64,000 bases of DNA from Chrysomallon squamiferum (taxonomy: Eukaryota > Animalia > Mollusca): positions 22,940,001-23,004,000 of the forward strand of contig CM022665.1 of NCBI GenBank assembly GCA_012295275.1, read 5' to 3'. How positions within the stretch are numbered: position 1 is the stretch's first letter; every line of letters starts with the position of its first letter. The notes beneath the pieces were generated by a model. The model made no database searches and had not been told where the DNA came from. It was given only the letters and a program-made list of their open reading frames with translations. Position numbers and translations under genes: made by a program. This document shows, piece by piece, positions 42,693-56,649 of the stretch.

Positions 42693-45600
42693 ATGAAGCT
42701 GCTCGTGATACTTTTCACTCTGTTCTTCATCTGCATTGCCTGCACAGGTAAGAGTCTCATAGTGTAATCTCCATATTATTATTGTTATTATTATTATTAT
42801 TATTATTACTGTTATTATTATTATTATTATTTGATATTTTTCACACTTGTTCATTTTTAAAAAAAAAAAAAAAATTTTTTTTTTTTAAATAATTAGAGCG
42901 AAGCATTGTTATTCAGTCAACATTAGATATATCTGTAACGTCGATCTTTGTTTTTATCTTTTCTTCCATTTCGTTCTGAGCCTTTTTATTTATCTCTGTC
43001 TTTTGCCTTTCTTGTCGCATTCTCTGTCTTTATACAGATATCTCTATTTCGTCATTTTGATCCCTCCCCCCATCTCTGTTCCATTTTCCTCTTTTCTAGG
43101 CATGTAGACCCATTCTGATATTATTTGTGTGTGGTTACCTAAAATATCACGGCACATAATCATTGACCATAAAATTATTAAAACGATGCCGTAGTTAATA
43201 TTTTATAGCTTCTGGACAAAGGCTTATTTGATCAAGCTGGGATACGAGAGATCACCCCAGATGGCAATAACCGTGTTACTAGCCTTGAATTTGACTTAAA
43301 TAAAGCGATCGTCACACTTCTTTTATCTCGGTCAGTAAACCTACCAAAATGACTAACGTAAATACAGACTAGATTCACGCGAGAAAATGAACAAATTTCA
43401 TATCATGATAATAAAAAATTATAACGACAGTAATAAAAGAAGAAAACGAAAAAAAAAAAAAAAAAAGAAAAGAAAGAAGAAAAAACAACATGAAACAGAT
43501 ACGATGAAATTAATGATATTGGTCAGTGCAATGGACGAAAGGGGAATTAGTTCAGCTGACGCCTTCGACCTATCACAATTTCAGCCCGTGAGCGAAAGTG
43601 CGCTCCCTAAAACCTGCTTTAACTTCTGACAGGTAAATTGCAGGTATTAGAATGAGGCAGTCAGTTTCCTTTTAGGACTGTGACTTAGAGATCGTCTAAA
43701 TGAATGTGAAATGTTTCCTTTCATGAGTTTTTAAATGAGATATTAAATATGTCTGCTCATGACTGTGATTTTAATCTTTATTGTGAATCAGAAAGACAGA
43801 AATATACCCATGACTCATGTATGAAAGCCGCTGCACAGATATTTGTACATGCGTGTTCCTCTGTCATAATCTTAAAATAGGCATATATTATTTTTATGTC
43901 AAATCACCGATTCCTACAAACTGCTTGTTTACTGGTTTTGTTATTCATTTTGTTTCAAATATGAATATTTATCAACACACATGGACAAATAGTATATCTG
44001 GGTGCTAAACAAAACATTCAGCACTCATCGAAAAGACTGCTTACATGGCAGTAACTACATTGAGGCTAATAAGGAAAATACGATTTTTAAAGTTATATAT
44101 ATATATATATATATTTTAATTTAAAAAATATAAAATATAAGTGGCTAGAATCGAGGATTTTGCGTCTTTCAAGTCGGAGCTTTTCTGGGCCTTTGGCTGC
44201 CCCCTGACCTCTCACACATATTTTTTTTTTGTCCTGCTCCGCTCTGCAATTTAGTGTTTTTGATTCATTTCAAAAAGTCTAGTACACGTCCATGGCTTAG
44301 CATGAAAATGTTATCCGAGTCCTTTTTAAGAAAGCCAAAATTATACTGCTACGCTTCGTAGAAAATAAATAACAGTAAAAGATAATGCAGTTAGCTAATT
44401 AGTTCTTCTGTAAGTCACAAGGCTTCATCAATGTTTTTCCAGCAGACTGCATTTTGTTTGTCATTTTGGTAGGTTTACTGACCGAGATAAAAGAAGTGTG
44501 ACGATCGCTTTTCTTAGTTAAATTCAAGGCCACTAGCTCGGTTATTGTCATCTGTGTTTTTCTATCGTAACCTTGTGTATATCCTAGTATAAAACTTATA
44601 CAATAAAAATAAACTGGGCCTCAGTTTAGGACATTCGAATCGAGAATTTTAAATAGAGGAGTCGAGTTCTTCTACTGAATCTAAACACTGTAGAAATCAC
44701 ATTTAGCGCAAGCCTTAAAATGTTTTTCTAGAAATATAAAAATACATATTTAAACCAAAAAGATATTTTACCAGTTTCATTTATTCGTTTTGTCCCTTTT
44801 TTTTTTTCTTTTTTTTTTATCACTTTAATTACGTATTTACAATTAAATAAAGAAATTATTAAATCTTAAGAAATTATATTAATAATTATGGTAAAGTTGG
44901 TAAAGTTTGTGTTATGAAGATTGTTCACTCTGCTCTAGATGATGGTGGTAATTTTATTTTGTGCAACTGATAACCATGATCTAACAAAGGAATAAAGAAA
45001 AGACTTCAACTTCATAGCTTTAGTTATCTCCAATGTACGTATCTGCAAAATTCACTTATTCGTTTTGTTTCAGACTGTTCTTCAGAATGTCCAGCCACAA
45101 AACTACATCTTCACTGCGGTTCACCTACTTTGTCAGCTTTTCTGTCTTCCTGTCAGAATGACAATCAGTGTGGTGCAGGTAAACACTGCTTATATACTAA
45201 CTACTTATAACTAAGTGTTGTAAACATATATCAGTTAATCTGTTATATAAAATAATGCAATATAGCTACAACAGTAACTAACTAACTGATTAAATAAATA
45301 AATACATAATTCACCGATATTCACTATAAAACTAATTCACTAACATGTCAATACAGACTAATTAAAAACATAGCTTACAGACATACAAACATGCATTCAT
45401 ACATACACATTCAAACTCACACGTACATACATTGATACACACGCCCAGACACATACACATACATACATACATATATACACACATACACACTGTGCACAGA
45501 AACATAAGTACTAAAAACGTCACTTGGTATAATGCTTCAAAAAACATTACTTTCCAGTATCGTTATATATGATTATAAATATGTGTGATTTTCCATTTAT

Positions 45601-54035: not shown

Positions 54036-56649
54036 TCAGCCAAATGAACAGGTACCTACAAAACAAAGAAAGAAATACTGTGACTTCAGAAAAACCAAAT
54101 TTTAATTAGCTAGAATAATTTAAAATAACAGCAACAACAACAACAACAACATCAATAATAATAATAAGAAGAAAAACAAATTTATTCACCACTGAAAAAT
54201 ATATCACCAGTTTGTGTCAGTTTAAGTGAGGGCGGGCTTGTAGCTCAGTGACTAGAACGATAACCTTGACATTCAGTGTCGACGTGTGCCATGATTACTT
54301 AACAAATACTGTTGAATTTACTTACAAGATTACACACACACACACACACACACACACACACACACACACACACACACACACACACACATCCATACATCTA
54401 TATATACATTTAAACGATAAGATACAAAAGGAAACCTGCAAAAGAAATATTTAATATATAAACTGTGAAGGCAAGATAGCAAAGACACATTACCTATGTA
54501 TCCACCATGTGCATCTCGTTTTGGATTTGGTCTCATGGCACAGAAATCACCACAACCGCAGGGACACAGATCCGGGTGTATGATACCGGGCGGACCTGGA
54601 CACCAAACATGGTGAAAGCCTGTTGGCCTGGGGTTGTGACAATCTGATAATATATAAATTTCAGCTCAATATTATATTCTGTCTAATCGTAAGTTCCGCT
54701 TTAATAATATAGATATTTATAATGTTACAAAAATACGAATGATCTCTCTCTCTCTCTCTCTCTCTCTCTCTCTCTCTCTCTCTCTATATATATATATATA
54801 TCAAAAATAATTATCCTCTCTAACAACAATCTCTCTCTCTCTCTCTCTCTCTCTCTCTCTCTCTCTCTCTCTCTCTCTCTCTCTCTCTCTCTCTCTCTCT
54901 CTCTCTCTCTCTCTCTCTCAAAAGAATCAAATCGTCTTTATCTTACAAACTTTCATTATTTGATATTAAAATCTATAAATGGAAACTTTCCAAGAGACTT
55001 TTACATGAGTATATGTGAACAAGGAATTGTATGATAAATATTTACCGTATCCAATCCATTTTCTATCCTGACAAATTCCTGACTTGGCATCAGGATTTGT
55101 GCTGGTACAGCACTGATCTGTTTGACAGTCGGTTTGTTTATTACAAGTTTTCTGAAAGGAAAATAAATAATAATAAAAAAAAAATCCTAAAGAAGAAGAA
55201 AATGAATAAAATAACATAAAATAAAACAAAATAAAATAAAATAAAGTAAAATAAAATAAAATAAAGTAAAGTAAAGTAAAGTAAAGTAAAGTAAATGAAA
55301 AGAAATACAACAAAATAAAGCCTAAAATACTAACTATTAACAAATTTAAAATGCTAACTATTAACAAATCTAGAAATATCGATATATTTTTTAATCATTT
55401 TTATTTTATTTATTTATTTGTTTATTTAATATTAATTTAAAAAATAATATTCACAAACTGTTGATTCGGTTTTCCAGTATTGCTGGAGATCATTTCTTTA
55501 ATTTTAAATAAATAAATAAATAAATAAATAAATAAATAAATAAAAAAATATATATGTTTAAAAAAAAAAAAAAAAAATTAAAAAAGGTTAAATAAATGAA
55601 TAAATAAATAAAGTAAGTATTATCACATGTGTCCTGGTTGTATTGACAAACTGCTTAATCTTTAAGTAATTATGTGGAAGTTACCGAGTTTTTTATTTCA
55701 GACGTCACAGTTGTAGAAGGTTGTTTTGTCGTGACAGATAATGTTTCTGTTGTGCCTGAAGGAGCAACACATTTTTTAACACAGTCAACTGTACAGCATA
55801 GCTGACCTGAAAAGAAAAAACATGCATTTAATACAAAATACGTAATGAAGAATTCCGAGGTATCATTATACAAATAGAAAATAATCAGTCTCTCTCTCTC
55901 TCTCTCTCTCTCTCTCTCTCTCTCTCTCTCTCTCTCTCTCTCTCTCTCTCTCTCTCTCTCTCTCTCTCCTATTTATACATTTTAAACAGCGATAAGAAAA
56001 AGCAAAAGAAATCGTTATAATATTTAAAATTTACCTTTTCTGCAATCATTATTATTTTCACACTGGCCTTCTGCTGAACTGTCGCAGTCTGTAGAGAATG
56101 AAGCTGGGCAATGACCTTTAAAAATAATAATTTTCTGATGTATTAACTGTCTTTATCATTAAATCTCCTTATAAATTTCAGTGCATTAGTAGTTCATTAC
56201 TTAATCGTGTATAACCTTAAATTCAAATGTAAAGGCAGTTTAATTTTATCTTTCTTATATTAAATGATGAAAATAGAAATATATTTAAAATTTGTAATAT
56301 TTATTTATGAAAATACAGTCTCCTTGCATTATGAAAATATATTTCTGTCAATACATCGGTCAGCAAATAATTAGGCATATTATTTATATATATATATATA
56401 TATATATATGTTTTAAAATTATGTTTATGTTCCTTTCTTTTAATTTAATTTAATTTTTTTACATTACAATAATATATACTTTTTTTATTTTAGTATAAAC
56501 ACAATGTAATATAGCTAATTAATCTTTTCAAATAAGACTGAACTGAATTAAACTAAAACAAAAATTCAGTTAATTTAAATGTTTAAATACTTACTTGCCA
56601 ACGCTTTGAAAATAAAAACAACACATATGTAGAAACCTACAAGTTTCAT
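54036..56649 (-). CDS. Cluster gene E: secreted WAP + Ser/Thr-rich linker + prokineticin/colipase-fold protein (177 aa)
   Basis: Minus-strand exons 56649-56595, 56115-56035, 55806-55685, 55151-55046, 54643-54494, 54055-54036 (534 nt, intact, GT-AG introns). Protein: MKLVGFYICVVFIFKALA SHCPASFSTDCDSSAEGQCENNNDCRK GQLCCTVDCVKKCVAPSGTTETLSVTTKQPSTTVTSEIKNS KTCNKQTDCQTDQCCTSTNPDAKSGICQDRKWIGY DCHNPRPTGFHHVWCPGPPGIIHPDLCPCGCGDFCAMRPNPKRDAHGGYI GTCSFG*. Textbook WAP pattern CP..C..C-x4-DC-x5-CC-x3-C-x3-C-x2-P. Confidence 0.9.
54230..54290 (+). mobile_element. tRNA-derived SINE head fragment in the last intron of gene E
   Basis: GGGCGGGCTTGTAGCTCAGTGACTAGAACG contains an A-box-like TAGCTCAGTG. No intact B-box or cloverleaf; a (CA)n tract follows. 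Confidence 0.4.

What the first reader, a model, noticed from the sequence alone, without database searches (positions are those of the whole stretch)
42693..56649. WAP + prokineticin-fold fusion architecture in three paralogues (C, D, E)
Seen in sequence: each gene has a 55-nt signal-peptide exon, an 8-Cys WAP core split across two exons, a low-complexity linker (PAPAPAP in C; Thr/Ser-rich in D and E), and then the PK domain. Established: WAP domains occur in protease inhibitors and antimicrobials (elafin, SLPI, crustins, waprins) and in gastropod shell proteins (perlwapin, lustrin A), while PK-fold proteins are normally stand-alone. I know of no described protein that joins the two. Inference: a bifunctional secreted protein, for example a protease-inhibitor or mineral-binding module tethered to a signalling or toxin module, possibly released by cleavage in the linker.
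Basis: partly seen in the sequence, partly recalled or inferred. Interest (0 to 1): 0.88.

Follow-up and report, generated by a model that had tools for sequence, protein, structure and literature searches.

The report
Vent-snail WAP–colipase-fold shell proteins
Three neighbouring genes of a snail related to the deep-sea vent snail Gigantopelta are each predicted to encode a secreted protein that joins a WAP domain to a prokineticin/colipase-fold domain, a pairing found here only in that snail family and likely used in the shell matrix rather than as a hormone or toxin.

Summary
Observation confirmed. Genes C (+), D and E (-) each have six GT-AG exons with phases 1,1,0,1,1 and open frames: signal exon, 8-Cys WAP over two exons, linker, 10- or 12-Cys colipase/prokineticin-fold domain. 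Gigantopelta aegis RefSeq proteins share the architecture at 54-61% identity. Four pass Pfam's WAP cut-off, and a model places WAP at 21-72 and the Bv8/Dkk/colipase fold at 75-161. Sequence searches found relatives only in G. aegis, and six paper searches found no description. The hormone, toxin and cleavage reading is weak: no AVIT start, no dibasic linker site in 3 of 3, and acidic WAPs in D and E. A peltospirid shell proteome lists a mantle-enriched 'prokineticin-1-like' protein and, at an apparently syntenic G. aegis locus, WAP proteins including the third-highest-scoring shell protein. That these are this family is inferred, not shown by sequence. No spliced transcript was seen. Best reading: a lineage-restricted shell-matrix protein made by domain shuffling. 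New variant of a known kind; interest 0.5.

The parts
42693..42747 (+). gene C exon 1, predicted signal peptide (55 nt, phase 1)
45074..45178 (+). gene C exon 2, WAP 5' half (Cys1-4)
   Evidence: Pfam WAP E=0.035 on the exon alone, below cut-off; tblastn to P0010
45613..45665 (+). gene C exon 3, WAP 3' half (Cys5-8), phase-0 donor
46039..46189 (+). gene C exon 4, Pro/Ala linker and first half of the 10-Cys colipase/PK-fold domain
46509..46634 (+). gene C exon 5, second half of the PK-fold domain
   Evidence: 78% to P0006
47235..47254 (+). gene C exon 6, last Cys and stop
52807..52861 (-). gene D exon 1, predicted signal peptide (55 nt)
51691..51777 (-). gene D exon 2, acidic WAP 5' half
51212..51285 (-). 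gene D exon 3, WAP 3' half and short linker (donor chosen for phase 0, less certain)
50605..50713 (-). gene D exon 4, first half of the 12-Cys PK-fold domain
   Evidence: (Dkk C-subdomain E=0.17)
50176..50316 (-). gene D exon 5, His-rich second half with CxCxC
49807..49826 (-). gene D exon 6, last Cys and stop
56595..56649 (-). gene E exon 1, predicted signal peptide (55 nt)
56035..56115 (-). gene E exon 2, WAP 5' half
55685..55806 (-). gene E exon 3, WAP 3' half and Ser/Thr-rich linker (another in-phase donor is possible)
55046..55151 (-). gene E exon 4, first half of the 12-Cys PK-fold domain
54494..54643 (-). gene E exon 5, second half (92% to G. aegis)
54036..54055 (-). gene E exon 6, last Cys and stop
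36190..38508 (+). gene B, PK-fold-only paralogue (4 exons, phases 0,1,1; 119 aa; no WAP exons)
   Evidence: 62% to P0005
31453..35097 (+). gene A, PK-fold-only paralogue; third exon is one base shorter than B's, so frameshifted as assembled
58710..58804 (-). orphan, broken copy of the second PK exon (relic)

Best explanation
Genes C, D and E are tandem paralogues predicted to encode secreted proteins with an N-terminal WAP domain and a C-terminal colipase/prokineticin-fold domain, likely secreted by the mantle into the shell matrix of peltospirid vent snails. Shown: the gene anatomy, both folds (by relatives and a model), the acidic WAPs of D and E, and restriction to G. aegis in the searches. 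Inferred: the acidic WAP, including the Cys2-Cys3 loop, would bind Ca2+ or carbonate crystal faces and restrain growth, as perlwapin does. The colipase-fold domain would act as a disulfide-locked binding module that anchors the protein to matrix proteins or organic layers. The two would stay joined through a Pro- or Ser/Thr-rich, probably O-glycosylated spacer. The fusion likely arose once by exon shuffling at the phase-0 intron in front of the PK exons, then duplicated.
For: Gene models and chance control. G. aegis counterparts: C-P0010 54%, D-P0009 54%, E-P0003/P0001 55-61%. WAP over Pfam's cut-off (20.8 bits) in P0001, P0003, P0004 and P0009; a WAP profile from 8 G. aegis domains scores C, D, E at 35-41 bits and B not at all. 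AF2 model of P0010 (pLDDT 64): residues 75-161 match Bv8 (Z 6.4, rmsd 3.7, 74 aligned), Dkk1 CRD2 (Z 6.2, 2.4, 62) and colipase (Z 6.1, 4.9, 77); residues 21-72 match SLPI (Z 3.6, 4.1, 46) and waprins. D/E-type WAPs: net charge -2 to -11, pI 4.1-4.6 in 7 of 7; their Cys2-Cys3 loop has 2-5 acidic and 0 basic residues. PMC11871041 supplement: C. squamiferum 6556_7.35 ('prokineticin-1-like') and 7.39 are shell proteins with mantle TPM 46.6 and 23.3, the highest of 5 tissues, assigned to the Peltospiridae stratum. Neighbouring id 7.38 is the orthologue of G. aegis ctg141-2.8. ctg141-2.10 (1 WAP) and 2.11 (4 WAPs; mean SEQUEST 252.6, third highest of the rows read) are G. aegis shell proteins. Perlwapin modulates CaCO3 growth in vitro (PMC6003135 passages).
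Against: The proteome ids have no sequences in what I could read, so their identity with this family is inferred. The WAP-to-WAP spacings in ctg141-2.11 (109, 168, 192 aa) do not equal the RefSeq unit lengths (145-177 aa). No WAP domain is listed for 7.35 or 7.39, so they may be PK-only or C-type members. 7.35 is also expressed in gill (TPM 35) and has low scores (2-7). These shell extracts also contain actin, tubulin and immune proteins, so occlusion does not show a mineral role, and SEQUEST sums grow with model length. C-type WAPs P0010, P0012 and gene C are mildly basic (pI 7.7-8.5), which does not fit the mineral-binding step. No binding or crystal assay exists. The tree does not separate one WAP gain plus loss in A/B from two gains (support 63/53).
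Confidence: 0.5

Rival explanations
1. Secreted defence protein of mantle, gill or mucus: the WAP inhibits microbial proteases or kills bacteria, the colipase-fold domain targets it, and its presence in shell is incidental or protective.
For: Closest WAP structures are SLPI and omwaprin. Protease-inhibitor domains are common in shell matrices (PMC2989941 passages). C-type WAPs are mildly basic. 6556_7.35 is expressed in gill and oesophageal gland too. The WAP diverges faster than the PK domain in D and E (38-40% versus 58-81% non-Cys identity).
Against: D/E WAPs are strongly acidic. None of 11 WAPs has Met two residues after Cys2; that inhibitory WAPs carry it there, and that antimicrobial WAPs are cationic, is recalled.
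Confidence: 0.25
2. Signalling molecule: an astakine-like cytokine or Dkk-like Wnt modulator whose WAP serves as carrier or matrix tether. Human anosmin-1 (a WAP protein) and PROK2 both underlie Kallmann syndrome.
For: Language-model neighbours of the C-type domain are prokineticin (0.89), astakine (0.85) and Dkk1 (0.83), all under the 0.9 bar. Fold matches to Bv8 and Dkk1. Anosmin/prokineticin papers were seen as a search listing only.
Against: No AVIT motif, internal position of the domain, no dibasic release site in window linkers, no Pfam Prokineticin or Dkk hit in full proteins, tandem expansion restricted to one family.
Confidence: 0.12
3. A divergent Dickkopf: the N-terminal 8-Cys domain is really Dkk CRD1.
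For: Protostome Dkks are signal peptide + 8-Cys CRD1 + colipase CRD2 (PMC6425005 passage).
Against: The N domain hits Pfam WAP, not Dickkopf_N. In the model, Dkk4's N-terminal region aligns to residues 72-161, not to 21-72, which align to WAP structures.
Confidence: 0.04
4. Annotation artefact: WAP and PK exons belong to separate transcripts.
For: No spliced read was seen. G. aegis model P0006 lacks the first WAP half and P0001 joins two units, so models in this cluster are unstable.
Against: WAP exon 3 has no stop before a phase-0 donor, and the PK exons of C, D, E have no signal exon of their own. The same phases hold in three genes on both strands. Seven RefSeq proteins of another species have the joined form.
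Confidence: 0.05

Closest known systems
Perlwapin and other molluscan WAP shell proteins (Haliotis perlwapin, lustrin A, Lottia WAP/antistasin proteins)
   Same: Secreted WAP domains in a gastropod; likely shell-matrix location; WAP combined with other Cys-rich modules (PMC3374290 passages).
   Different: One WAP per unit joined to a colipase/PK fold, not WAP arrays or WAP+antistasin; ctg141-2.10/2.11 had no row in the paper's BLAST table against known shell proteins.
Prokineticin / Bv8 / MIT1 / astakine and lophotrochozoan prokineticin-like proteins
   Same: Colipase fold; gene C has C-5-C-4-CC-11-C-9-C-17-C-1-C-5-C-16-C.
   Different: No AVIT start; N-terminal WAP; A, B, D, E have two extra Cys in a His-rich loop; below Pfam detection. 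None of 42 lophotrochozoan sequences read by eye had a WAP.
Dickkopf (protostome dkk1/2/4) and draxin
   Same: Signal peptide, N-terminal module, linker, C-terminal colipase-fold domain.
   Different: N-terminal module is WAP, not Dkk CRD1.
Elafin / SLPI / waprins / crustins
   Same: Four-disulfide-core WAP pattern; structural match.
   Different: D/E WAPs are acidic, lack the recalled Met in the inhibitory loop, are split by an intron and are fused to a colipase fold.
G. aegis RefSeq proteins XP_041353295-305, XP_041351365, XP_041352178, XP_041351112, XP_041354622, XP_041354872
   Same: Same family and architecture, all on one 120.6-Mb record.
   Different: Named 'uncharacterized', 'whey acidic protein-like' or 'stereocilin-like'; the second domain is unannotated.

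Membership tests
WAP four-disulfide core (PF00095) | 8 Cys in the WAP spacing with CC at positions 5-6 | tested here: met
   3 of 3 window genes
WAP four-disulfide core (PF00095) | Pfam gathering score 20.8 bits | tested here: met
   Met by G. aegis D/E counterparts P0001 (34, two domains), P0003 (23.4), P0004 (21.8), P0009 (26.7); missed by C-type P0010 (19.5) and P0011 (no hit). Spliced window proteins were not scanned against Pfam, only single exons.
WAP four-disulfide core (PF00095) | WAP fold | tested here: inconclusive
   Model residues 21-72 match SLPI (Z 3.6, rmsd 4.1, 46 aligned) but pLDDT there is 37-68
Protease-inhibitory WAPs (elafin/SLPI type) | Met-bearing hydrophobic loop after Cys2 (recalled feature) | tested here: not met
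   0 of 11 WAPs have Met at +2
Colipase/prokineticin/Dkk-CRD2 fold | 10-Cys framework | tested here: met
   C has 10; A, B, D, E have the 10 plus 2
Colipase/prokineticin/Dkk-CRD2 fold | Structural match | tested here: met
   Z 6.1-6.4 to Bv8, Dkk1, colipase, the only three rows with Z>=5 of 48,161 chains; Foldseek top rows MIT1 and colipase, prob 1.00, E 0.003-0.004; Atlas TM 0.58-0.77. Z under 8 is moderate by the tool's own note.
Prokineticin / AVIT peptides | Free N-terminal AVIT motif (recalled) | tested here: not met
   Absent in 4 of 4 window models and 9 of 9 G. aegis proteins
Prokineticin (PF06607) | Pfam profile hit | tested here: not met
   No hit at E<=10 in 9 of 9 or at E<=1 in P0001
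Dickkopf | N-terminal CRD1 (PF04706) | tested here: not met
Shell matrix proteins | Peptides in cleaned shell and mantle expression | tested here: inconclusive
   Candidate ids in PMC11871041 fit by name, domain, stratum and locus, but no sequence match could be made
Shell matrix proteins | Binds or modulates CaCO3 | not testable with these tools
   needs a bench assay

The most novel reading that the evidence does not exclude
Peltospirid vent snails built a new major shell protein by fusing an acidic, crystal-binding WAP to a colipase/prokineticin fold co-opted from a signalling family. The extra disulfide and His-rich loop of the 12-Cys members (3-7 His) bind transition metals. The third-highest-scoring G. 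aegis shell protein, labelled 'multiple EGF-like domains protein 6', is a merged model of this gene cluster.
Probability: 0.2. Interest if true: 0.75.

Novelty: new variant of a known kind. Interest (0 to 1): 0.5.

Why it matters
It would add the colipase/prokineticin fold to the molluscan shell toolkit and give a clean, exon-resolved case of domain shuffling at the root of one vent-snail family. It would also re-identify a top-scoring but mislabelled G. aegis shell protein. The PK-only paralogues in the same cluster are natural controls for what the WAP adds. It does not point to a new hormone or toxin class, and domain shuffling in shell proteins is itself familiar.

Tried and rejected
No whole genome is held for this window, so copy number outside the window and synteny could not be checked directly. 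RNA: no RNA holder was listed. Three RNA runs of the same study gave no contig over the exons and no splice joint in 42500-52400; this is no evidence either way. Pfam on single exons was mostly blank: 10 exons of C, D, E gave 4 weak hits, none at cut-off. HMMER over 1.84 billion representatives with C exon 4 gave 3 hits, of which 2 (P0007, a PKD-repeat protein, and P0008, a repeat-tailed protein) were dropped as spurious; the query was only 50 aa. A single-sequence model of P0006 (pLDDT 49) gave meaningless Foldseek rows. phmmer of P0003 against PDB gave only noise. The profile of A3 against PDB found WAPs weakly (E 0.03-0.06) and no PK. The tree test of WAP loss in A/B was unresolved. Matching ctg141-2.11's WAP spacings to RefSeq unit lengths failed; only the count and length classes fit. 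Earlier-findings look-ups returned nothing. A WAP-PK inter-domain prediction was not run; no binding is claimed. Rejected: divergent Dkk, AVIT-type hormone or toxin, dibasic release.
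Full report
1. Observation. I rebuilt five genes between 31.4 and 56.7 kb. C (+), D (-) and E (-) each have six coding exons with GT..AG introns in phases 1,1,0,1,1 and open frames of 169, 161 and 177 aa. Exon 1 is 55 nt and hydrophobic (no signal-peptide predictor was available). Exons 2-3 carry an 8-Cys WAP pattern split at the same position. Exons 4-6 carry a 10-Cys (C) or 12-Cys (D, E) domain. Genes A and B have only the second domain (phases 0,1,1); A's third exon is one base shorter than B's. 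The three Cys patterns occur 3, 3 and 5 times, exactly at these exons, against shuffle means of 0, 0.12 and 0. Contigs of run X1, which keep the introns, cover C exons 1-5 and D exons 2, 4 and part of 5 with no listed indel in an exon. Of the 40 differences shown (13 more were not shown), 5 fall in exons: 3 synonymous and 2 not.

2. Relatives. E's exon 5 found four Gigantopelta aegis proteins (84-92%; 4 of 4 candidates), C's exon 5 found one (1 of 3 candidates), and a family profile found 8 of 4,842 candidates, all G. aegis and all on one 120.6-Mb record. That search needs shared 5-residue words and covered 19-359 aa, so distant relatives can be missed. Best full-length matches: C-P0010 54%, D-P0009 54%, E-P0003/P0001 55-61%, B-P0005 62%. 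Seven G. aegis proteins have a complete WAP followed by the second domain (eight units, since P0001 has two). P0006 has half a WAP; P0002 and P0005 have none. The window is therefore likely from a peltospirid relative, not from the G. aegis reference itself (inference).

3. Domains. Pfam WAP passes its cut-off in P0001, P0003, P0004 and P0009, and falls short in P0010 (19.5 of 20.8 bits) and P0011. A profile of the eight G. aegis WAPs scores C, D, E at 39, 35 and 41 bits. No Prokineticin, Colipase or Dickkopf_N model hit the full proteins. The fold is still clear. The ESM Atlas lists prokineticin 0.89, astakine 0.85, colipase 0.84 and Dkk1 0.83 by features (leads, under 0.9) and TM 0.58-0.77 by structure. 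An AF2 model of P0010 from 9 sequences (pLDDT 64; about 80 in much of the C domain) ranks MIT1 and colipase first in Foldseek. In the wide search Bv8, Dkk1 CRD2 and colipase are the only chains with Z>=5, and WAP structures align to residues 21-72 at Z 2.3-3.6. Because protostome Dickkopfs have an 8-Cys plus colipase layout (PMC6425005), I checked that rival: the N domain is WAP-like, not CRD1.

4. Clues to function. No AVIT motif anywhere, and no dibasic site in the three window linkers or in 7 of 8 G. aegis linkers. D/E-type WAPs are acidic in 7 of 7 (pI 4.1-4.6), with 2-5 acidic and no basic residues between Cys2 and Cys3. Three of four C-type WAPs are mildly basic. The 12-Cys domains hold 3-7 His, the 10-Cys ones 1-2. 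Between species the PK domain is better kept than the WAP in D and E.

5. Shell proteome lead. PMC11871041 reports shell proteomes of C. squamiferum and G. aegis. Its text mentions WAP proteins generally and never prokineticin or colipase. In its tables, 6556_7.35 ('prokineticin-1-like', 3 of 5 shell samples, scores 2-7) and 7.39 (2 of 5) are shell proteins with highest TPM in mantle. Ids 7.33 and 7.38 are also highest in mantle, and all are in the Peltospiridae stratum. The TPM sheet holding them is captioned 'scale', but they stand in the shell score sheet, not the scale one. 7.38 is paired with G. aegis ctg141-2.8, and 8.16/9.28 with ctg141-5.1, which suggests synteny. ctg141-2.10 (one WAP) and ctg141-2.11 (four WAPs, labelled 'multiple EGF-like domains protein 6') are G. 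aegis shell proteins. 2.11 is found in 3 of 3 shells and has the third-highest mean score among the rows of that sheet, read in two parts (the paper states 156 proteins). The five WAP matches (two of 45 aa, three of 43 aa) mirror the five D/E-type RefSeq WAPs (two spanning 40 aa, three spanning 38). The spacings do not match exactly, and no sequences were available. I put about 75% on these ids being this family (judgement).

6. Mechanism. Most likely a mantle-secreted matrix protein: an acidic WAP on the mineral side, as for perlwapin (PMC6003135), and a colipase fold as anchor, kept together by a spacer. Everything beyond anatomy and fold is inferred. Defence (0.25) and signalling (0.12) remain. 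A single origin of the fusion is favoured by identical exon phases and the shared intron inside the WAP. The tree splits 10-Cys from 12-Cys members (100/100) but does not place the PK-only genes.

7. Novelty. Zero papers for: WAP domain + prokineticin + mollusc; whey acidic protein + prokineticin + gastropod; prokineticin + shell matrix protein; WAP + astakine + domain architecture; Chrysomallon + prokineticin; WAP + colipase + fusion + secreted + invertebrate. The library is open-access only, and no InterPro architecture search was possible. None of 42 lophotrochozoan prokineticin-like sequences in one part of the PMC6425005 catalogue had a WAP by eye; that catalogue was filtered for neuropeptide-like features and I read only parts 55-56. 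The proteins already sit in RefSeq, unnamed or misnamed. Verdict: a real, apparently undescribed, lineage-restricted architecture; new variant of a known kind; interest 0.5.

8. What I saw of each paper. PMC11871041: abstract, passages, sections 7, 8, 15, 17, the supplement captions, searches of the spreadsheet and parts 14, 18, 19, 70. The spreadsheet is cut at 4 million characters, so sheets 26-30 (including G. aegis mantle gene lists) were unseen, and two other files were unreadable; these may bear on expression. PMC6425005: passages and supplement parts 55-56. PMC2989941, PMC3374290, PMC6003135: passages; search listings only. The AVIT requirement, the Met loop of inhibitory WAPs and the cationic nature of antimicrobial WAPs are recalled.

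Noticed in passing
window 33754-33902 (+): Gene A's third exon is 149 nt against 150 in gene B, shifting the frame; pseudogene or assembly error. Not covered by the laid reads.
   Followed up: partly
window 58710-58804 (-): Orphan, broken copy of the second PK exon upstream of gene E; no matching first PK or WAP exon found by tblastn or pattern.
   Followed up: partly
window 63276-63530 (+): Exon with leucine-rich repeats (Pfam LRR_4, E 4.8e-9), a neighbouring gene running off the window end.
   Followed up: no
window 45074-45087 (+): Gene C has an extra Cys just ahead of the WAP that P0010 lacks; it may be unpaired in the mature chain and allow dimers.
   Followed up: no
P0010 / P0012: Filed as isoforms of one RefSeq locus but 89% identical with differences along the whole length: probably tandem copies merged in one gene model.
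   Followed up: no
P0001: Two WAP-PK units in one 330-aa model, with 20 rather than 22 framework-plus-WAP Cys at the junction because one Cys is shared; likely a read-through model of two neighbouring genes.
   Followed up: partly
window 53150-53560: Tandem repeat of about 30 nt between genes E and D, upstream of D's start.
   Followed up: no
window 469-868: Overlapping open frames of 124-126 codons on both strands, Ser/Pro-rich on +; possibly an exon of another gene.
   Followed up: no
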